Made by a program: the position numbers and the translations under genes | Shown here: piece after piece, positions 10,615 to 34,299 of the stretch | How the letters are laid out: each line of letters starts with the position of its first letter | Position numbering within the stretch: the first letter of the stretch is position 1 | IMG/VR virus record: IMGVR_UViG_3300042898_000958 | Length of the DNA: 36,273 nucleotides | Strand: one strand, 5' to 3' | Source: a virus | Notes under the pieces: generated by a model | Database searches by the model: none | Seen by the model: the letters and a program-made list of their open reading frames with translations, nothing else | Told to the model about the DNA's origin: nothing

Positions 10615-12579
10615 TTATTTACGTTTAACTAATTCCGCGTTCCAAATATGCCTACAATAAGGCACGTTTACATTCATGTTAGGGTCGTGATACCATCCAC
10701 CTCTACGACTAAATGCATCATAATTTGGGATACCATACACCTGCCCTAGCTCGTCACCTATTTTGTCAATCTCTTCACGTGTAAAGTAACGTTGGTTATC
10801 CATCATAGCTTGACAAAAATCTCTACTCTCACCAATTAAAGCAGGTGCATCTGGTCGCAATCCATAGCGGTAACGAATAAACAAATCTTTAAACGTTGGA
10901 ACTTTTGCATCCTCACCTTTTGCCGTTGCAATCTGTCCGCCTTTCCCTACTTCTACTAATCCATCGGCTGCTAATGTTTCTAATGCATTACTTACAGCCG
11001 TTTTATCTATCTTTAAAACTTTGCCTATTGATTCAACTGTTATGTTAGGTGTCTTTTTAATCAAATCTAAAACGCCCTGCTCTACTTTATCAAGTGCAAA
11101 ATCTTGTTTGCCAAACACAAATTTTTTATGTTTAACCAACTCAAACTTTTCAACTGGCTCACCATACTTTAAAAACACTTCAATGTCTAGGCTGTCATCT
11201 GATTGGCTGTTAAAGTGCGAACACTTGCTAAATGCTGCTCCCGTTGCGGAATCTGTTGCTACTATATCACCGCCCTCAACAGGTGGTCTATTAATTATTG
11301 CACGAACTTCATTTTTCGTCAAGTTATTTAACACCTTAGTAGCAACCAATGGGCTTAATGCGTTTAAGTCATCTACTACGCTTGAAATTTGCGCCTTAGT
11401 ATCTAATGGCTCACGTCCTACTATCTCCCTCATCTCATCTTTAGTTAAGATACTCATTAAAGTAGCTTCACCAAATGAAGGCATGATAGGCTCAACAGGT
11501 ATAATACTTAATCTACCTTTAACTGGTGCGAATAAGTTGTATATCTTTTCTTGTACTTTTTGACGTGGTGTAACGTATGTATTTTGAAACAAATTAAACG
11601 CATCAACCATTTCGTTTCTGCCACCTAATTGCCCCTCTACACGAACACCAAATAACATAGGTGAAGTTATTTTATGCCCTACAAATATCTCTTGCTGTAT
11701 CGTCTCATTTAATGCGTTGTATTTGTCCGCAAAATCTCCAGCCCCTAAATCTAAGATCTCTGGTACACGTGTAACATCATCCACAAAATCAATTAAGAAT
11801 ACACCAGCTTTATCTGTTGGTGCAAACTTAGCTTTCATTTTATTTTCTACACTCTTAATCTCGTCATCATTTGGAACTCCATTTTTGAAAACAATCATTT
11901 TAGATCCTTTAAATCCGTTTTGGATTTCGGCTCGGTGAAAGTTAGCTATTTCAGCATCTGTTATAATTGAAGGAACTGCCCCAATATAATCAGGTAAAGT
12001 GTATACGTCTAAATTCGGACGATATGTTTTGTAGTAAAATAGTGATTCTTTTGCTTTGGTTTCAGGTTCCCATGCTGGATAAGTGTAATCTATTTTAGGT
12101 CTTGAATTTTCGCTGCCATCCTCATTTATCCAATCATCACTAATATAAAAATTAGTATTATCTTCGTTTGAACGAACCTTGCAATAATCTATGTGGGATA
12201 TGTAATTCTTTTTCTTGTCCTTAGACTTTGTTACCTTTAAATAACAACCATTAAACAGCTCCACGTCTAATGTAGTCTTTGCCAATAAATCGTCAAGAGT
12301 TTCATATGGGTTAGGACTATCAACGTATGTTTTTAATAACGCTTGCTCTTCGCCTTCCATGCCGTTGGCGTTAAACGTAAAGCCTTGCCCTTTAATGTAC
12401 AACTGTTTATTGGTTATAATAGCGTTATGTTTTGCGCTTCGATTAAACAATAAAACGAGGTACTGGGGATAGTCATTTGTTTCACCGTACTTAACCCAAT
12501 CTTCACCTCTTACCTCGACAAATGTAGGTACTTTATCGTTTGAGAATTTTACGTTTATTAGCGTGTTATTGTAAGCCAT
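10615..12579 (-). CDS. Portal protein fused to a winged-helix segment and a MuF/SPP1-gp7-like C-terminal domain
   Basis: The N-terminal WVKYGETNDYPQYL...SAKHNAIITNKQLYIKGQG is portal-like. Residues ~503-544 (VLDLIKKTPNITVESIGKVLKIDKTAVSNALETLAADGLVEV) are MarR-type wHTH-like. The C-terminus (FCQAMM...YFTREEI...RRGGWYH...PYCRHIW) is MuF-like. Confidence 0.65.
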   Translation of the reverse strand: MAYNNTLINVKFSNDKVPTFVEVRGEDWVKYGETNDYPQYLVLLFNRSAKHNAIITNKQLYIKGQGFTFNANGMEGEEQALLKTYVDSPNPYETLDDLLAKTTLDVELFNGCYLKVTKSKDKKKNYISHIDYCKVRSNEDNTNFYISDDWINEDGSENSRPKIDYTYPAWEPETKAKESLFYYKTYRPNLDVYTLPDYIGAVPSIITDAEIANFHRAEIQNGFKGSKMIVFKNGVPNDDEIKSVENKMKAKFAPTDKAGVFLIDFVDDVTRVPEILDLGAGDFADKYNALNETIQQEIFVGHKITSPMLFGVRVEGQLGGRNEMVDAFNLFQNTYVTPRQKVQEKIYNLFAPVKGRLSIIPVEPIMPSFGEATLMSILTKDEMREIVGREPLDTKAQISSVVDDLNALSPLVATKVLNNLTKNEVRAIINRPPVEGGDIVATDSATGAAFSKCSHFNSQSDDSLDIEVFLKYGEPVEKFELVKHKKFVFGKQDFALDKVEQGVLDLIKKTPNITVESIGKVLKIDKTAVSNALETLAADGLVEVGKGGQIATAKGEDAKVPTFKDLFIRYRYGLRPDAPALIGESRDFCQAMMDNQRYFTREEIDKIGDELGQVYGIPNYDAFSRRGGWYHDPNMNVNVPYCRHIWNAELVKRK

Positions 12580-29303: not shown

Positions 29304-29383
29304 ATCAAATTTTGTTTTTAAGTTTAAATTTTGTGTTCCAAAGTCGGCAACGAACGCCAACCGCCAAACCGTTAGTGGCAACC

Positions 29384-29707
29384 CTAAGAAACCACGTAGA
29401 TAGCCGTTGGACGTTCATATTCTTTTATTCCCTTTTCGCCTTGACCTTCAGTAGTCCAATCTGGAACGCTACCTGTGTTTATCGTATCACATTCCACAAT
29501 GTACATCACTTGACATCCCATAATTATCATTTCCCCAATTTCTATGAACCAATTTGCGTGTGAACGATTAGGAATAAATCCAAGCGTTTTTCCAGCTTCG
29601 TGTACTGCTTTTAGCGTCCCGTGAACAGCTTTGTATTGTTTGCCATCTTTTCCATAAAACCAACCTTGTGTGGTTACTAATACCTTTTTGTTTATGAAAT
29701 TTTGCAT
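29384..29707 (-). CDS. Hypothetical early protein
   Basis: 107-aa ORF. Its stop TAG is followed by GGTTGCCACTAACGGTT. Confidence 0.55.
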   Translation of the reverse strand: MQNFINKKVLVTTQGWFYGKDGKQYKAVHGTLKAVHEAGKTLGFIPNRSHANWFIEIGEMIIMGCQVMYIVECDTINTGSVPDWTTEGQGEKGIKEYERPTAIYVVS

Positions 29708-29749
29708 ATTTTTAAGTTTTGTATTTCAATTAAAGTTTGGTTAGGGCTT

Positions 29750-29761
29750 CTTCGCCAAGCC
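29750..29761 (-). repeat. Post-stop element part B 12-mer (sense GGCTTGGCGAAG)
   Basis: cttcgccaagcc is also at 30467-30478 and 32508-32519. Confidence 0.85.
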
Positions 29762-29770
29762 AGATACCAA

Positions 29771-30004
29771 TTAAACAGACGGTATTAAATCACCTGTATA
29801 AAATGCGTCCAAATCACTTTTAAACCATTCAGGATGTTCATCAACCCAAACATCTAAAGCTTGATGCTTGTAATTGTTTGGATTTTTCCATTTATCCATC
29901 TCCGTTTCTTTGTGAATAATTATCTGGACTTCTCCAATTTTTGTATGTGTATGACGGTTTTGAATATCATACATTAAAGAAATGTGTTGCTTTGCTAAAC
30001 TCAT
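29771..30004 (-). CDS. Hypothetical early protein
   Basis: 77-aa ORF. TAATTTTG (TAnnTTTG) lies 4 nt upstream of the ATG. Confidence 0.55.
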   Translation of the reverse strand: MSLAKQHISLMYDIQNRHTHTKIGEVQIIIHKETEMDKWKNPNNYKHQALDVWVDEHPEWFKSDLDAFYTGDLIPSV

Positions 30005-30144
30005 TTTACAAAATTAACTTCTGCCAACAATATATTGCCAATAGTGGGGCAGACGTGCCACTATTGAGCATTGGTACTACTATTAAACTTTGTGTTGTGG
30101 CGGTTTAGTAGTGCCTTGAAATCCCCGCCATCGGCAATATTTGG

Positions 30145-30163
30145 AACGTTATGTGCAAGGCTA
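30145..30163 (-). repeat. Post-stop element part A (19-mer identical to 4231-4249)
   Basis: aacgttatgtgcaaggcta, including the TAG stop of ORF 30161..30358. Confidence 0.85.
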
Positions 30164-30358
30164 AGATTCAATCTCCGTAATGACTAACCCTCGTAAATCA
30201 AGTTTATAGTCCTTAACTTTATCTTTGTTTTGAATATTTTTAGCCCATTCAATAATTTCGTTCAATGTTGTAAATTCATTAAACACTCTTTCTTGCCATA
30301 CATTTCTCCATTCATCCTCGTTTACTCGAATAGTTCTTTCAAATTTTACTAATATCAT
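30161..30358 (-). CDS. Hypothetical early protein (65 aa)
   Basis: ORF bracketed by inverted GTTATGTGC 9-mers (30148-30156 and 30398-30406). Confidence 0.55.
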   Translation of the reverse strand: MILVKFERTIRVNEDEWRNVWQERVFNEFTTLNEIIEWAKNIQNKDKVKDYKLDLRGLVITEIES

Positions 30359-30882
30359 TTCGTTTTCAAATTAAATTCAGTGCTGATAAACCGCCCAGCA
30401 CATAACAGCGGTTTGGCAAAAGCTGCCATAAACATTGTGCGAACTTTGAACTTTCCTTTAGGCAGCCTTCGCCAAGCCGCAAAACGGTGGCAACCGTTAA
30501 GATTACCACGTTCCACAATTTCACCAGCATATATTTTGACTGTTCCCTTTTTAGTTGTGACTTTTAAGCCGTTTGAAAAATCAACTGAATAAGGATTTGT
30601 TTCAATTTCCCACCCCCTAAACTTTGCTATGAAATATGGTTTATCACTTCCATATCCATTTACAAACTTTATCAGATCATACTTTTTCCCTTGCAACCTT
30701 GACAAAATCCATTTTGACGGCTCTCGATATTCAGTTGATTTTTCACCAGTCACCATAACTTCAAATGGCATCTTTGAAAGCGTTAAGTGAAGAATACGGC
30801 AGCCACCAACAGCACTCTTGCTCATCACGGGTTTCATGCTTTCAAAGGGTGTTCCTTCGTTAAAATAATCTTCTGTTTTCAT
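30355..30882 (-). CDS. ASCH-domain-like protein with a C-terminal extension translated from the intergenic repeat
   Basis: ATG at 30882 (MKTEDYF). LHLTLSKMPFEVMVTGEKSTEYRE...IKFVNGYG is ASCH-like. The last ~45 codons (from ~30497) read through parts A and B of the repeat to a TGA that overlaps the next ATG. Confidence 0.55.
   Translation of the reverse strand: MKTEDYFNEGTPFESMKPVMSKSAVGGCRILHLTLSKMPFEVMVTGEKSTEYREPSKWILSRLQGKKYDLIKFVNGYGSDKPYFIAKFRGWEIETNPYSVDFSNGLKVTTKKGTVKIYAGEIVERGNLNGCHRFAAWRRLPKGKFKVRTMFMAAFAKPLLCAGRFISTEFNLKTK
30366..30377 (-). promoter_or_regulatory. Early start-module 12-mer (sense AATTTAATTTGA)
   Basis: 8 nt upstream of the ATG at 30358. Confidence 0.4.
30408..30480 (-). 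repeat. 73-nt inverted repeat/long hairpin (20-bp arms, 33-nt loop)
   Basis: In sense orientation, GCGGCTTGGCGAAGGCTGCC pairs with GGCAGCTTTTGCCAAACCGC: 17 Watson-Crick pairs, 2 G:U and 1 mismatch. The antisense strand pairs worse (1 wobble, 2 mismatches). Confidence 0.7.
30467..30478 (-). repeat. Post-stop element part B 12-mer
   Basis: cttcgccaagcc. Confidence 0.85.
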
Positions 30883-30929
30883 ACTATAAATTTTACTTGT
30901 TAAGCCCGCACTTCGCAAGGCTGCAGGCG

Positions 30930-31205
30930 TTATAAGCCATTTAGGACAGCCCGTAATTCAGAAACTTCAATCTGTAATTTGCTTATAAAATCTGTAACCC
31001 ATTTCTGTTGTTTATAATCATTACACACCGGCATTCCATTGCTTACCTTTCTCGTTTTTTCTCTTTGACATTGGTTAGTCATCCACAAATCACAACTGCC
31101 ACAAACTTTAGGTAGTTCATTTATCTTTTGTTCCTTAGCCCTAATATTGTCTATAATTTGACGCCTATTATCTGCCTTTGCAATAAAGTCCCATATATCA
31201 TTCAT
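30930..31205 (-). CDS. Cys-rich small protein (possible Zn finger)
   Basis: CGSCDLWMTNQC...PVCNDY. 91 aa. Confidence 0.55.
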   Translation of the reverse strand: MNDIWDFIAKADNRRQIIDNIRAKEQKINELPKVCGSCDLWMTNQCQREKTRKVSNGMPVCNDYKQQKWVTDFISKLQIEVSELRAVLNGL

Positions 31206-31211
31206 TGTTTT

Positions 31212-31223
31212 TCAAATTAAATT
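31212..31223 (-). promoter_or_regulatory. Early start-module 12-mer (sense AATTTAATTTGA), overlapping the XRE gene's stop
   Basis: 7 nt upstream of the ATG at 31205. Confidence 0.35.
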
Positions 31224-31415
31224 TATCGTAAGTTGACAATTTAAAGCTTCTGCAATTGCGCTTAAATTGTTAATTGACACATTAGCACTACCACGCTCTA
31301 TTGAACCGATTGTTACCACGCTTAAATTAGCTTTAGCAGCTAATTCTTTTTGGCTAAGTTTTGCAGTTAGGCGAACGATTCGTATTCGTTCGCCTAGTAT
31401 TTTTAAGTTAGTCAT
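31212..31415 (-). CDS. XRE/Cro-type HTH transcriptional regulator
   Basis: LGERIRIVRLTAKLSQKELAAKANLSVVTIGSIERGSANVSINNLSAIAEAL is a canonical HTH_3 pattern. Confidence 0.85.
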   Translation of the reverse strand: MTNLKILGERIRIVRLTAKLSQKELAAKANLSVVTIGSIERGSANVSINNLSAIAEALNCQLTINLI

Positions 31416-31642
31416 TAGTATAAAAAGCCTTTTTCGTGAATGTCAATAAACTCATAATGGAACTTTTGTTCAGTTTCTGAAAGTTCAGATTTTAAAGCAA
31501 TCTCATTTTCGGTAAAAGGTTCTATTCCTAATCCAAATTGAGTTTCAGACAAATCAATAATTTCTTGTTTACTTGAAGCTAAAACTTCAATTTTTGATTG
31601 CTTATTTAAAGCCTTTGTAATTGTTACGATGTAATTGTTCAT
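31415..31642 (-). CDS. Small acidic protein (75 aa)
   Basis: 13 D/E versus 7 K/R. Its stop shares one base with the XRE ATG. Confidence 0.55.
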   Translation of the reverse strand: MNNYIVTITKALNKQSKIEVLASSKQEIIDLSETQFGLGIEPFTENEIALKSELSETEQKFHYEFIDIHEKGFLY

Positions 31643-31644
31643 AT

Positions 31645-31917
31645 TTAGTTATATTGGTATTCTTTAGTTAATTGGTTGAAAGTTCTGTTTTCATTGTTAC
31701 CTGCAAATTCAGCTAATTTATGACCGCTTCTTTTTGCTCTTGCTCTTAATTGATTATGAACGTCATTGAACAAATCAAAAGCATTACCGTTAAAATTTTC
31801 ATTCTCTACAATCCAAAGCATCAAATTCATGTAGCTTTTTAAATTGTCTTCGCCAGCTACTTTAGTTATTTTTGCGATGATGTAAGATTTTCTGTTTTTT
31901 AAGTCTTGAATAGTCAT
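31645..31917 (-). CDS. Hypothetical protein (90 aa), first gene of the XRE operon
   Basis: ORF downstream of the candidate promoter at 31941-31970. Confidence 0.55.
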   Translation of the reverse strand: MTIQDLKNRKSYIIAKITKVAGEDNLKSYMNLMLWIVENENFNGNAFDLFNDVHNQLRARAKRSGHKLAEFAGNNENRTFNQLTKEYQYN

Positions 31918-31940
31918 TTTGTTATTGCTTTATTGCTCAA

Positions 31941-31970
31941 CAAAGATAAATATAGTTATCATAATAACAA
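31941..31970 (-). promoter_or_regulatory. Candidate promoter TTG-N19-TATCTTTG with palindrome GTTATTATGATAAC in the spacer
   Basis: In sense orientation: TTG at 31970-31968, TATCTTTG at 31948-31941, the palindrome at 31968-31955, and the tandem AGCAATAA x2 at 31937-31922 in the leader. Confidence 0.35.
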
Positions 31971-32005
31971 ATATAATTTAATTTTATTTTCTAAAGTACT
32001 GATAA

Positions 32006-32456
32006 TCAAAGAGAAAAAAAACAACACAAGTTTAAGAAAACAGCGACCGTGCTAAAATCTAAACTTAGCTGTGATTTAAAGTCATTAAAACGTTTTTCTT
32101 GTTTCTCATAATATTCTTGGTCTATTTCAAAACCTACAAAGTTGAACCCGCCTTTATACGCTGCAATCCTACTGCTTCCACTTCCTAAATGGGTATCTAA
32201 AAAGTTCCGTAAAATATTTCTCCGTTGGCACTTCCATATCCCAATTACCATTTTTGTTATGGTATCTTTTAAACCTTCCACCGCTATTTACTACACTTTC
32301 CCCCAATCCATAAGGCGGGTCAACTATTGCTAAATCAAAATGGTTATCGTTAAAGCGTTTTAATGCTGTTACACAATCTTCCAAATACACCTCCGACAAA
32401 GGCACTGCTGGTAACACGGGTTTGGCAAAATTGCCGTTCGTTTCTTCTATCAACAT
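32006..32456 (-). pseudogene. DNA N6A/N4C methyltransferase remnant (internal deletion plus frameshift)
   Basis: ORF 32169..32456 carries FDLAIVDPPYG...WDMEVPTEKYFTELFR (motif IV side). ORF 32006..32281, in another frame, carries LDTHLGSGSSRIAAYKGGFNFVGFEID (motif I). The two motifs abut, so about 100 aa of the normal core are missing. Confidence 0.65.
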
Positions 32457-32507
32457 TCGTTTTTAATTTTTAAGTTTAGTAATTCTATTGAGCTTCGGGT
32501 TCAGCCA

Positions 32508-32519
32508 CTTCGCCAAGCC
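32508..32519 (-). repeat. Post-stop element part B 12-mer
   Basis: cttcgccaagcc. Confidence 0.85.
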
Positions 32520-32527
32520 CTTCTACG

Positions 32528-32806
32528 TTATAAGACATTTTCAAGGACGTCCTCAATCCTATCTAAAATATTGTTACTATCTTTTTCTATTAAAGAAATT
32601 CCATCTCGCCCAAAACACTCGTACAAACATATTAAATATCCTTTTTCTGCGTTTGAACTTTCAATACTAATTACAAAACCACCTGCTATAAACTTTATCC
32701 TATCACCGCTTTCTACATCAGTAACTGAATACTCACAAGCATTATAGTTAGAAAAACGGCTTATAATATCGGCTTTGTGCAAGTGGGGGTTATCTGCTAA
32801 ATTCAT
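32528..32806 (-). CDS. Hypothetical early protein
   Basis: 92-aa ORF. Its stop TAA runs into CGTAGAAGGGCTTGGCGAAG. Confidence 0.55.
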   Translation of the reverse strand: MNLADNPHLHKADIISRFSNYNACEYSVTDVESGDRIKFIAGGFVISIESSNAEKGYLICLYECFGRDGISLIEKDSNNILDRIEDVLENVL

Positions 32807-32884
32807 ACTTTCGTTTTTAAATTAAGTTTTGTGGTGGGTTGAAACTTTCGTGCTTTAATGCCCCACCTGCACAAAGCCGAGAAC

Positions 32885-32896
32885 CGTTATGTGCAA
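32885..32896 (-). repeat. Post-stop element part A core (sense TTGCACATAACG)
   Basis: cgttatgtgcaa lies directly after the TAG of the 49-aa ORF. Confidence 0.8.
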
Positions 32897-32898
32897 CC

Positions 32899-33048
32899 CT
32901 AAAACGGCCACAAACACCATTTGCAGTTGCTATAATCAGCATCTTTATCAAACTCAAAGTAAGTATCAAAAGCACCATAGCCGTTTTCTGCTATAATCAC
33001 TCTTTGACCTTCTTTTGGCACTCCTGTTTTAAAATCAATCCAATTCAT
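32899..33048 (-). CDS. Small ORF, 49 aa, DUF551-like (below track cutoff)
   Basis: MNWIDFKTGVPKEGQRVIIAENGYGAFDTYFEFDKDADYSNCKWCLWPF. The W-I-x-x-K/P...V-I/L pattern is that of DUF551 phage proteins. The post-stop element follows. Confidence 0.5.
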   Translation of the reverse strand: MNWIDFKTGVPKEGQRVIIAENGYGAFDTYFEFDKDADYSNCKWCLWPF

Positions 33049-33088
33049 GTTTATTTGTGTTCTAAATTTCGTTGTTTCATTTTCGTTA

Positions 33089-33412
33089 CTAATTAAATTT
33101 CAAAGTCTGCTCTAGGACTTCAACTTGTCTTTTCAATTCTTTTATATGTTTTTGCTGCTTCGCTATTACTTGCTCATATTCGCTTATTTTAACTTCGTGT
33201 ATGAAGTTTTGCGCTACTGTTTGCCGAATAGTATCATAATCGGTTGAAAGTTGCTTAAAACGCATTATTTGGCTTTCTGTTGCTTTTACTCTTAACTTCA
33301 TCCCCATATCGAAAAAAAAAGAACTAAAGTTAATGAGCGCCTTAGCTACTGAATGCTGGTGATCGTAGTAAGGTGTTACTGATTTGCTCGTTTTTAATAT
33401 TTCGGTTATCAT
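33089..33412 (-). CDS. Hypothetical coiled-coil protein
   Basis: 107-aa ORF whose ATG shares one base with the helicase stop (TAATG). Confidence 0.55.
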   Translation of the reverse strand: MITEILKTSKSVTPYYDHQHSVAKALINFSSFFFDMGMKLRVKATESQIMRFKQLSTDYDTIRQTVAQNFIHEVKISEYEQVIAKQQKHIKELKRQVEVLEQTLKFN

Positions 33413-34299
33413 TAGAATGGTGCTGGTGTGAACGTGAATGTTCTTGTTTCCTGTGTACTGTCGCTTCTATGTAAATACCGTTGCTGGTAAATGTTATAGT
33501 CTAATTTAATTTCACCCTTCCTACCTATCCCCCTCTTTGCTTTCTGTATTAAAATATCTACGTGAGTCCTTTCGCTTTCTATTTCGCTAAACTCTTTTGG
33601 ACGGTAAACGCAAATAATACCATCGGCTTTAGCGTACCATGTAGCACCACCACTAAACTCAAATGCAGTAGGTGGGCTGTAGGTGTCTGAATCTTTTGGC
33701 TTTTGCAAAGTACGAGGGTGTGCAACTATAAACGTGTGAATGTTTAGGCTTCGAGAGAATAAACGAATATCACCCAATACACGTTCCAGATAAATGTCTT
33801 GACGTTCTGAATAAACGTGTTTTAATTCATTCCACGGGTCTAACATTACCGTCTTTATTTCGTTTTCCAGTATGTAAGGCTTAATGTATTGCATTATTTC
33901 GTACGGTGTTTTGGCTTCTTCTTTGGTATCGTAAACATGGAAATGGTCAGAAATAAAAGCAGCGTGCTTATACAAATCTAATTCAGATAATTTATCAAAC
34001 GCCCCTAATCGGTTTCTTTTACGTGATACCATGCTTAGGATAGTTGTGTATACATCTGCTACACCTCCTTCCTCAGGTGCGAAAATAACGTGCTTTAAGC
34101 CGTGTATTTCGGATAGCTGTATTAACACCTCAAACAAAAATGTACTTTTCCCATGACTTGGTATTCCTGCAAAGTAAGTTGTACGTCCTAGCTGAAACGA
34201 ATAGTAATCTTTGAGCATGTCTATTTTATAGGAAAACTTTTCAGGGTTCTTTATAACCGCCTCAACTTGATTAATTATTGTGTTTAAATTTACTATCAT
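33412..34299 (-). CDS. DnaB-family replicative helicase (RecA-like C-terminal domain only)
   Basis: Walker A GIPSHGKSTF, Walker B VMLDPWNE, then FIVAHPR and SGGATWYAKADGI, as in the DnaB/T7 gp4 helicase core. Confidence 0.65.
   Translation of the reverse strand: MIVNLNTIINQVEAVIKNPEKFSYKIDMLKDYYSFQLGRTTYFAGIPSHGKSTFLFEVLIQLSEIHGLKHVIFAPEEGGVADVYTTILSMVSRKRNRLGAFDKLSELDLYKHAAFISDHFHVYDTKEEAKTPYEIMQYIKPYILENEIKTVMLDPWNELKHVYSERQDIYLERVLGDIRLFSRSLNIHTFIVAHPRTLQKPKDSDTYSPPTAFEFSGGATWYAKADGIICVYRPKEFSEIESERTHVDILIQKAKRGIGRKGEIKLDYNIYQQRYLHRSDSTQETRTFTFTPAPF

What the first reader, a model, noticed from the sequence alone, without database searches (positions are those of the whole stretch)
31212..31975. 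Promoter with dyad, two small proteins, then an XRE HTH: an acr-aca-like anti-defence operon candidate
A good TTG-N19-TATCTTTG promoter match (31970-31941) has the palindrome GTTATTATGATAAC (31968-31955) in its spacer. A second TAnnTTTG box (TATATTTG, 31975-31968) lies just upstream, and a tandem AGCAATAA-AGCAATAA repeat (31937-31922) sits in the leader. Three tightly packed genes follow: a 90-aa protein, a 75-aa acidic protein (13 D/E versus 7 K/R) and a 67-aa canonical XRE HTH whose ATG shares a base with the preceding stop. Small unknown proteins followed by a short autoregulatory HTH (Aca) behind a dyad-containing promoter is the recurrent architecture of anti-CRISPR and other anti-defence loci. 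Acidic small proteins are often DNA mimics. The locus also sits right after the decayed methyltransferase, a region typical for anti-restriction functions. Alternatively this is simply a Cro-like early regulator operon.
Basis: inference. Interest (0 to 1): 0.6.

Follow-up and report, generated by a model that had tools for sequence, protein, structure and literature searches.

The report
Optional early three-gene phage cassette
A freshwater Flavobacterium-type phage carries a self-contained unit (promoter, two tiny proteins of unknown function, small DNA-binding regulator) that some otherwise identical wild phages lack, so it is an optional add-on and a fair but unproven candidate for countering host defences or hijacking host transcription.

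Summary
The promoter is real by comparison: it is conserved in position upstream of gpA homologues in four other phage loci. The 5-bp dyad is no better than chance.

The main new result is that the unit is a discrete presence/absence cassette. A related virus record is 99.7-100% identical on both flanks but lacks window 31224-32196. Contigs from four lake-water metagenome runs show both alleles, and a further branch point lies at 31984, just upstream of the promoter.

- gpA (90 aa, basic) is the conserved first gene of promoter-led operons whose downstream genes vary.
- gpB (75 aa, acidic) is a very narrow family. Its best fold matches, all weak, are RNA polymerase epsilon and T7 Gp2.
- The HTH is an intact XRE domain, closest to restriction-modification controller proteins.

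Nothing matches a known anti-defence or defence family.

Verdict: this is an accessory, probably self-regulated early cassette. The acr-aca-like architecture is supported. Anti-defence function is not shown, and an RNA-polymerase-directed role is an equally live option. An essential Cro-type role is unlikely. Moderate interest.

The parts
31941..31970 (-). Bacteroidota-type promoter: -33 TTG, 19-nt spacer, -7 TATCTTTG. The -7 box ends 23 nt before the gpA ATG.
   Evidence: Sequence. Pattern scan: 4 observed against about 1.1 expected on this strand. Conserved in position upstream of gpA homologues in L006, L007 and L015.
31955..31968 (.). Dyad GTTAT-TATG-ATAAC inside the promoter spacer, the candidate operator. 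It interlocks with a second dyad, GATAA-N6-TTATC, that reaches the -7 box.
   Evidence: Unique in the window, but a dyad of this size arises by chance in 63% of shuffles. L006 and L007 have different and longer dyads at the same place; L015 has none.
31968..31975 (-). Second TAnnTTTG-like box (TATATTTG), overlapping the -33 TTG.
   Evidence: Sequence. No TTG lies at the right distance upstream, so this is a weaker promoter candidate.
31918..31937 (-). Short A-rich leader with the tandem AGCAATAA-AGCAATAA. Its last 9 nt (AATAACAAA) are the inverted copy of TTTGTTATT at 31971-31963.
   Evidence: A CAATAAAC/G-like leader motif is shared by L006, L007 and L015.
31645..31917 (-). gpA: 90 aa, basic (pI 9.3), helical. 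It is the conserved first gene of the operon. The C-terminal 33 aa (RxRAKRSGHKLAE.AGNN...) are the conserved core.
   Evidence: 23 homologues, all from metagenomes or phages, none with a Pfam family. Alignment A1. AF2 mean pLDDT 80. Fold matches to sigma region 2 are at Z 6.2-6.7, which is within noise for helical proteins.
31415..31642 (-). gpB: 75 aa, acidic (pI 4.7), with a beta-beta-alpha-beta core.
   Evidence: Family of only about 4 clusters among 1.84 billion representatives. AF2 mean pLDDT 85. Top fold matches are RNAP epsilon (Z 4.9, 4.7, 4.3) and T7 Gp2 (Foldseek rank 1, VIA Z 3.2). 10 of 13 members give a sub-threshold PF14207 DpnD/PcfM hit.
31212..31415 (-). 67-aa XRE-family HTH, the candidate autoregulator. 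Its ATG overlaps the gpB stop by one base.
   Evidence: PF01381, E 1.5e-14. PADLOC Control_protein, E 1.1e-12. Best solved relatives are C.AhdI (7e-6) and C.Esp1396I, then P22 C2 and 434 Cro. Homologues at 73-95% identity carry varied C-terminal tails.
31224..31984 (-). The mobile module proper: promoter plus three genes, bounded by natural breakpoints.
   Evidence: Breakpoint at 31223. Branch point at 31984 in runs X7 and X3. GC 29.4% against 34.8% for the window.
31224..32196 (.). The 973-nt stretch missing from the alternative allele. There it is replaced by 110 nt: 63 nt more of the methyltransferase, then a GC-rich junction element.
   Evidence: G001 is 99.7-100% identical on the flanks. 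A contig in run X14 joins 31223 to 32197 with 110 letters between. Loose ends of the same form occur in X2, X3 and X7.
31366..31398 (-). GC-rich hairpin with an 11-bp stem inside the 5' coding part of the HTH gene, 17 nt after its ATG. It may act at the mRNA level.
   Evidence: RNA fold -18 kcal/mol, z = -4.9, 0 of 200 shuffles as stable.
32006..32456 (-). Decayed DNA methyltransferase (N-terminal DPPY part and C-terminal FxGxG part in different frames). This is context and carries the upstream breakpoint at 32197.
   Evidence: 90-94% DNA identity to intact methyltransferase genes of Flavobacterium phages hemulen, stinky and filifjonk, with about 280 nt missing internally.

Best explanation
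This is an accessory, moron-like early cassette.

Proposed mechanism:
1. A host-type Bacteroidota promoter (-33 TTG / -7 TAnnTTTG) with a very short leader drives one tightly packed transcript.
2. That transcript encodes gpA (basic, helical), gpB (acidic, Gp2/epsilon-like fold) and a small XRE HTH.
3. gpA and gpB are host-directed effectors made at the start of infection. They either neutralise a host defence or act on host RNA polymerase.
4. The HTH, made last from the same message, binds the dyad that overlaps the promoter spacer and shuts the operon down, as Aca proteins and R-M controller proteins do.

Shown: the anatomy; conservation of the promoter with gpA; the discreteness of the module; its presence/absence polymorphism in wild phage populations; the integrity of the HTH domain; and the restriction of gpA and gpB to a few phages.

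Inferred: autoregulation by the HTH, early timing, and any target of gpA or gpB.
For: - Anatomy and one-base or two-base gene junctions.
- The promoter travels with gpA in four other loci.
- In L015, gpA is the first gene after the lysis genes, that is, at the head of the early region.
- G001 is 99.7-100% identical on both flanks but lacks 31224-32196.
- Both alleles appear in contigs of four lake-water runs. One contig in X14 joins across the gap, and there is an extra branch point at 31984 just upstream of the -33 box.
- The cassette GC is 5 points below the window average.
- The HTH is a complete XRE domain, most like autoregulatory C proteins.
- The motif GTTAT-N4-ATAAC occurs only at this promoter in the window.
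- gpB and HTH homologues have longest contigs of the same lengths (3075, 12497 and 854 nt), which suggests they stay linked in relatives.
- gpA and gpB are absent from 50,697 phage records, from 185,579 species genomes and from defence-protein libraries. This fits fast-evolving accessory effectors.
- The Aca paradigm of HTH autorepression at inverted repeats in acr promoters is described in PMC6765145, PMC9410906 and PMC13551039.
Against: - No similarity to any known anti-defence protein. No anti-CRISPR, Aca or dbAPIS library was available here.
- The window's dyad is not above chance.
- Dyads do not track the presence of an HTH across loci. L006 has the best palindrome and no HTH in the operon; L015 has no dyad.
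- gpA, not the HTH, is the conserved element. So gpA may be a general early protein and only gpB plus the HTH the variable load.
- Fold matches for gpA and gpB are all below the level the tools call reliable.
- There is no expression data.
- There is no terminator after the HTH, so the unit is not insulated from downstream genes.
Confidence: 0.5

Rival explanations
1. It is specifically a host-transcription takeover module. gpB binds host RNA polymerase as T7 Gp2 does (or occupies an epsilon-like site). gpA, with a sigma-region-2-like helical domain, competes for or decoys the sigma-binding surface. The HTH times their expression. This overlaps the best explanation and is one of its two branches.
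For: - gpB's top-ranked solved structures in three searches are RNAP epsilon (6zca_E Z 4.9, rmsd 3.0, 61 aa; 6wvk_E Z 4.7; 8x6f_G Z 4.3; YkzG 4njc_C Z 3.7) and T7 Gp2 (Foldseek rank 1, prob 0.75, TM 0.62 by target; VIA Z 3.2).
- Epsilon is described as structurally related to Gp2 (PMC7722741).
- BFVD hits include entries named RNA polymerase inhibitor.
- gpB is acidic, like Gp2.
- About 14 of gpA's top 50 VIA rows are ECF sigma region 2 or PhyR sigma-like domains (5uxx_C Z 6.6, rmsd 2.5, 71 aa; 2map Z 6.2).
Against: - All Z values lie below the tools' stated noise levels (under 8, or under 13 for helical proteins).
- hhalign of the gpB family against T7 Gp2 gives probability 4%.
- hhalign of gpA against the phage's own sigma-like ORF gives probability 0.1%.
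- No Pfam sigma, Gp2 or RpoY family hit.
- A polymerase inhibitor that most of the population lacks would have to be non-essential.
- This phage most likely depends on host polymerase for the very promoter that drives the cassette.
Confidence: 0.2
2. It is a phage gene-expression regulator operon. The HTH is a Cro- or C-protein-like temporal switch acting on phage promoters. gpA and gpB are co-regulators or fillers with no role against the host.
For: The HTH resembles P22 C2, 434 Cro and controller proteins. The unit sits in the early/replication region, between replication genes and a small-gene array. gpA leads early operons in related phages.
Against: - The whole unit is missing from flank-identical phages that dominate several natural samples, so it cannot be a core switch.
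- The candidate operator occurs nowhere else in the window.
- No divergent repressor or lysogeny module was seen.
Confidence: 0.15
3. It is a selfish or exclusion module: a toxin-antitoxin-like or superinfection-exclusion set (basic gpA, acidic gpB as neutraliser, HTH as regulator) that persists by addiction or by blocking competing phages.
For: A basic/acidic pair with near-coupled translation. The HTH hits HipB/Y4mF-type antitoxin models. The cassette behaves as a mobile unit.
Against: No toxin domain in gpA. gpA often occurs without gpB (L015, L016), which a toxin without its antitoxin should not do. The gene order is unlike known tripartite systems. The phage appears virulent.
Confidence: 0.07

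Closest known systems
acr-aca operons (anti-CRISPR genes followed by an HTH autorepressor such as Aca1 or Aca2; PMC6765145, PMC9410906, PMC13551039)
   Same: A promoter, then one or two small orphan proteins, then a short HTH at the 3' end. A dyad overlaps the promoter. The unit is accessory and patchily distributed in phages, with tight gene packing.
   Different: No sequence link to any Acr or Aca could be tested or found. The conserved anchor here is the first small gene and its promoter, not the HTH. The dyad is weak. The host phylum uses a different promoter type. No CRISPR or defence phenotype is known.
Restriction-modification controller (C) proteins (C.AhdI, C.Esp1396I, C.BclI)
   Same: They are the closest sequence relatives of the HTH among solved structures and in PADLOC. 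They are of similar size and are autoregulators at dyad operators in their own promoters. A methyltransferase remnant lies just upstream.
   Different: There is no restriction endonuclease gene. The HTH is the third gene, not the first. No C-box-like double palindrome is present. The methyltransferase is decayed and lies outside the mobile module.
T7 Gp2 and RNA polymerase epsilon (RpoY/YkzG) fold
   Same: gpB is small and acidic, has a beta-beta-alpha-beta core, and is an early phage gene. These are its top-ranked structural matches.
   Different: Z is only 3.2-4.9 and there is no sequence signal. gpB has an extra C-terminal 20 aa. The host is Bacteroidota, where no such factor is known. The cassette is dispensable, whereas Gp2 is needed by T7.
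Phage morons (promoter-bearing accessory inserts between conserved genes)
   Same: It has its own promoter, lower GC than its surroundings, presence/absence between near-identical genomes, and insertion at a gene boundary.
   Different: There is no terminator at its end. It sits in the early region rather than the late region. It is probably expressed during lytic infection rather than from a prophage.

Membership tests
acr-aca type anti-defence operon | Small ORF(s) directly upstream of, and co-oriented with, a short HTH gene behind one promoter | tested here: met
   promoter at 31970-31941, then 90-aa, 75-aa and 67-aa HTH ORFs with gaps of 2 nt and -1 nt.
acr-aca type anti-defence operon | The HTH belongs to a described Aca family | not testable with these tools
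   No Aca, Acr or dbAPIS library was available. A phmmer search of PDB sequences at E up to 1 listed controller, Cro/C2, HipB and SinR-type chains.
acr-aca type anti-defence operon | Inverted repeat in the promoter that the HTH binds | tested here: inconclusive
   A dyad with 5-bp arms is present and unique in the window, but it is expected by chance in 63% of shuffles. Binding was not tested.
acr-aca type anti-defence operon | The same HTH recurs next to different small genes in other mobile elements | tested here: inconclusive
   HTH relatives at 73-95% identity appear linked to gpB relatives, judged by equal contig lengths. gpA homologues have other neighbours.
acr-aca type anti-defence operon | The upstream protein inhibits CRISPR-Cas or another defence | not testable with these tools
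   This needs plaque or EOP assays.
R-M controller (C) protein | Short XRE HTH with sequence similarity to C proteins | tested here: met
   PADLOC Control_protein E 1.1e-12. C.AhdI E 7e-6, with C.Esp1396I and C.BclI also listed.
R-M controller (C) protein | Encoded with a restriction endonuclease and a methyltransferase that it controls | tested here: not met
   No endonuclease was found. gpA and gpB have no nuclease or R-M hits. Only a broken methyltransferase lies upstream.
T7 Gp2 / RNAP epsilon fold | Structural match of the whole domain | tested here: inconclusive
   6zca_E Z 4.9, rmsd 3.0, 61 aa. 6wvk_E Z 4.7, rmsd 2.9, 59 aa, standing 1.2 Z above the next row. 4lk0_M Z 3.2, rmsd 2.8, 50 aa. 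Foldseek E 0.24.
T7 Gp2 / RNAP epsilon fold | Sequence or profile similarity | tested here: inconclusive
   hhalign of alignment A2 against T7 Gp2: probability 4%, 20 columns, in the structurally equivalent strand-helix. No Pfam hit.
DpnD/PcfM-like (PF14207) | Score at or above Pfam's gathering cut-off (25 bits) | tested here: not met
   The window protein scores 12.6 bits (E 0.14). 10 of 13 family members match weakly, best E 0.0021. This is a possible distant relation only.
Sigma-70 family region 2 (gpA) | Fold and sequence match to sigma region 2 | tested here: inconclusive
   VIA: 5uxx_C Z 6.6, rmsd 2.5, 71 aa; 2map Z 6.2, rmsd 2.6, 66 aa. Both are below the noise level for helical proteins. 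No Pfam sigma hit.
Bacteroidota sigma-A promoter | -33 TTG and -7 TAnnTTTG about 19 nt apart, close upstream of a gene | tested here: met
   Conserved in position in L006, L007 and L015. The consensus itself comes from established knowledge of Bacteroidetes promoters. The transcription start was not mapped.
Lambdoid Cro/CI switch | Divergently transcribed repressor and a lysogeny module | tested here: not met
   The gene array lies on one strand. No integrase among the ten large ORFs scanned. The cassette is absent from flank-identical phages.

The most novel reading that the evidence does not exclude
gpA (sigma-region-2-like) and gpB (Gp2/epsilon-like) together form a two-protein module that redirects or disables Bacteroidota RNA polymerase. 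This would be the first phage-encoded polymerase-binding factors for a phylum with its own sigma-A and promoter type. The module would be carried as an optional, HTH-timed cassette that is polymorphic in wild lake phage populations.
Probability: 0.15. Interest if true: 0.7.

Novelty: new member of a known kind. Interest (0 to 1): 0.42.

Why it matters
Anti-defence and host-takeover genes of Bacteroidota phages are almost unknown. Here nature supplies a near-isogenic pair: the same phage with and without a 0.76-kb promoter-led cassette, co-occurring in lakes. That makes a defence- or host-dependent phenotype directly testable. If gpA or gpB hit a defence system or the unusual Bacteroidota RNA polymerase, they would be new tools and new families. 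If they do not, the locus is still a clear example of how small early genes are shuffled at fixed junctions in these phages.

Tried and rejected
- tblastn of gpA and gpB against 50,697 phage records: no match, even at E = 1.
- PADLOC and NCBIfam for gpA and gpB: nothing.
- Pfam and PHROGs: only sub-threshold hits.
- ESM Atlas: scores 0.82-0.83, in the range that shuffled proteins reach.
- Profile search of gpB against 1.84 billion representatives: four real clusters, plus three spurious hits in repetitive proteins.
- gpA profile in 185,579 species genomes: none. The HTH profile there found only generic XRE hits in unrelated phyla.
- PDB sequence search: for gpA only designed helical repeats, for gpB nothing.
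- hhalign of gpA against the phage's sigma-like ORF: probability 0.1%.
- I looked for an RNA structure that could explain the high DNA conservation of the gpA 3' end. It gave 8 invariant pairs and no covariation, so this was rejected.
- Small proteins downstream of gpA in L007, L015 and L016 look HTH- or RHH-like by eye but hit no Pfam or PHROG family. A recurrent downstream regulator is therefore not established.
- R-M remnant reading (C protein plus methyltransferase): rejected, because there is no endonuclease and the methyltransferase lies outside the module.
The contexts of the 45-kb, 28-kb and 12.5-kb contigs that carry homologues could not be read.
- Literature search for DpnD/PcfM gave nothing usable.
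Full report
**What the window is.** Its only DNA matches in GenBank phages are methyltransferase genes of Baltic Flavobacterium siphoviruses (hemulen, stinky, filifjonk, mumin, tooticki; 87-94% identity). The ORFs I read as genes lie on the minus strand. The region holds replication genes at 33.4-35.0 kb, a terminase at 22.8-23.9 kb and an array of small early genes. Sequencing runs that hold this stretch are lake-water metagenomes. The window's own assembly is not held. The nearest virus record, G001, shares 23% of the sampled words.

**Observation check.**
- TTG-N19-TATCTTTG at 31970-31941;
- GTTATTATGATAAC at 31968-31955;
- TATATTTG at 31975-31968;
- AGCAATAA twice at 31937-31922;
- ORFs of 90, 75 and 67 aa.

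The second stop and the third ATG share one base. The 75-aa protein has 13 D/E and 7 K/R. The 67-aa protein is an XRE HTH (PF01381, E 1.5e-14).

The full promoter pattern occurs four times on the gene strand, against about one expected. More tellingly, the promoter is conserved in position upstream of homologues of the first gene in L006, L007 and L015, with the -7 box 22-24 nt before the ATG. In L016 the -7 box is present but the -33 spacing is off.

The dyad is not statistically remarkable: 63% of shuffles of the same 40-nt zone contain an inverted repeat at least as good. The exact motif is, however, unique in the 36-kb window. L006 has an 8-bp-arm palindrome and L007 a 6-bp-arm dyad at the same place, each with a different sequence. 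L015 has none.

**The unit is a discrete, optional cassette.** G001 matches window 30874-31223 at 99.7% and 32197-33109 at 100%. The 973 nt in between are replaced by 110 nt: 63 nt more of the methyltransferase reading frame, then a GC-rich junction element of the kind seen at other gene ends in this array.

Contigs of four lake-water runs from four studies (2020-2024) were laid on 30500-32900 and show both alleles:
- In X14 a 2,060-nt contig of depth 45 joins 31223 to 32197 with 110 letters between. Cassette pieces in that run have depth 3-5.
- In X3 and X7 the flank contigs (about 30 and 10-19) carry loose ends of the G001 form at both breakpoints. Cassette contigs have depth 3-10.
- In X2 a 2,255-nt contig carries the window form from 30500 to 32202.

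Contig depth is a rough measure, and flank contigs may sum both alleles. The co-existence of both forms, and the bridging contig, are direct observations.

A further branch point lies at 31984, 14 nt upstream of the -33 TTG: a loose end in X7 and a contig start in X3. This bounds the module as promoter plus three genes, 31224-31984. Its GC content is 29.4% against 34.8% for the window.

The methyltransferase is broken differently in the two alleles. The window form has an internal deletion and a frame change. G001 is truncated after about 108 codons. So neither allele is simply the parent of the other.

**gpA (90 aa).** It has 23 homologues, all from metagenomes or uncultured phages, and none has a Pfam family. 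None was found in GenBank phages or in 185,579 species genomes.

In all five loci read, gpA is the first gene behind an intergenic gap of 90-180 nt, and what follows differs:
- gpB in the window, L006 and L007;
- unrelated small ORFs in L015 and L016;
- an ERF recombinase after gpB in L006.

In L015, gpA directly follows the lysis genes, so it heads the early region.

The C-terminal 33 residues are nearly invariant, while the N-terminal half diverges. At DNA level the last 105 nt or so are 89-96% identical, against about 60% for the 5' half. No RNA structure explains this. Two short homologues have a different N-terminus on the same C-terminus.

The AF2 model is helical (pLDDT 80). Many of its best structural neighbours are ECF sigma region 2 or PhyR sigma-like domains (Z 5-6.7). 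These scores are within the noise the tool states for helical proteins.

**gpB (75 aa).** It has ten close homologues. Only four clusters appear among 1.84 billion representatives in a full profile search.

The AF2 model (pLDDT 85) has a beta-beta-alpha-beta core. Three structure searches agree on the top matches:
- Foldseek ranks T7 Gp2 first (E 0.24, prob 0.75).
- An independent VIA scan of 48,161 chains ranks B. subtilis RNAP epsilon first (Z 4.7), 1.2 above the next row.
- The VIA second look gives epsilon chains at Z 4.9, 4.7, 4.3 and 3.7, and Gp2 at 3.2.

Epsilon is described as structurally related to Gp2 (PMC7722741). Sequence support is absent: hhalign gives probability 4%. Ten of 13 family members give sub-threshold hits to PF14207 DpnD/PcfM. 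I treat the Gp2/epsilon resemblance as a lead, not a finding.

**The HTH.** The domain is complete. The nearest solved relatives are R-M controller proteins (C.AhdI 7e-6, C.Esp1396I, C.BclI), then P22 C2 and 434 Cro. The best PADLOC model is Control_protein.

Relatives at 73-95% identity have different C-terminal tails of 9-30 aa. The window version ends exactly at the 31223 junction, so the breakpoint lies just past the domain. The longest contigs of gpB and HTH homologues share lengths (3075, 12497 and 854 nt), which suggests the two stay linked.

No endonuclease is present, so this is not an R-M controller in context.

A stable 11-bp GC-rich hairpin lies 17 nt inside the HTH coding sequence (z -4.9). 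Aca1 and Aca2 are reported to bind RNA stem-loops in the 5' UTRs of their operons (PMC13551039). This hairpin lies inside the coding sequence rather than in a 5' UTR, so the parallel is only a loose analogy. Whether the hairpin matters is unknown.

**Synthesis.** It behaves as a mobile accessory unit, which is what one expects of anti-defence or moron loci and not of an essential Cro-type switch.

What is not shown is any anti-defence activity. There is no match to known families, the operator is weak, and the conserved anchor is gpA with its promoter rather than the HTH. The only structural leads point to RNA polymerase partners.

I therefore file it as an accessory, probably self-regulated early cassette with two host-directed small proteins (confidence about 0.5). 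It has two branches of similar weight: counter-defence, and polymerase-directed takeover. A pure regulator operon (0.15) and a selfish or exclusion module (0.07) are the rivals.

**Limits.** No Acr or Aca library, no multimer prediction and no usable RNA data were available.

Noticed in passing
window 31366-31398 (-): An 11-bp GC-rich hairpin lies inside the 5' coding region of the HTH gene and encodes LGERIRIVRL. RNA fold -18 kcal/mol, z -4.9. On the opposite strand it scans as terminator-like.
   Followed up: partly
window 31417-31446 (-): A near-consensus E. coli-type promoter, TTGACA-N18-TATACT (11 of 12), ends 2 nt before the HTH ATG, inside the gpB 3' end. It is probably irrelevant in Bacteroidota.
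   Followed up: no
window 31984: A third allele exists. In run X7 a contig shares the methyltransferase 3' end up to 31984 and then continues with unrelated sequence in place of the promoter and gpA (table 7).
   Followed up: no
window 29365-33962 vs L010 (G001): The small-gene array is strongly mosaic between the two phages. Window 29375-30873 is replaced in G001. A block matching window 29365-29731 sits elsewhere in G001. Flanking blocks range from 81% to 100% identity.
   Followed up: partly
window 31645-31750 (-); L006, L007, L015: The last 105 nt or so of gpA are 89-96% identical at DNA level across loci whose 5' halves are about 60% identical. Two 64-68-aa proteins (P0019, P0023) carry the same C-terminus on a different N-terminus. 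This could be a recombination linker or a very constrained peptide.
   Followed up: partly
L007 4718-4945 and L015 3739-3960: A 73-75-aa protein (…RLRxIA…YQAxRLL…) is shared downstream of gpA in two loci that otherwise differ. It hits no family.
   Followed up: no
window 32431-32503: In runs X3 and X7, contigs (depth up to 178) replace this stretch, at the methyltransferase start and its upstream junction, with 30 other letters. This is another variable junction (table 5c).
   Followed up: no
   Followed up: partly
window 10615-12579 (-): A 654-aa ORF among the structural genes carries a MarR-type winged-helix stretch at residues 496-544 (E 6e-6, just under the Pfam cut-off).
   Followed up: no
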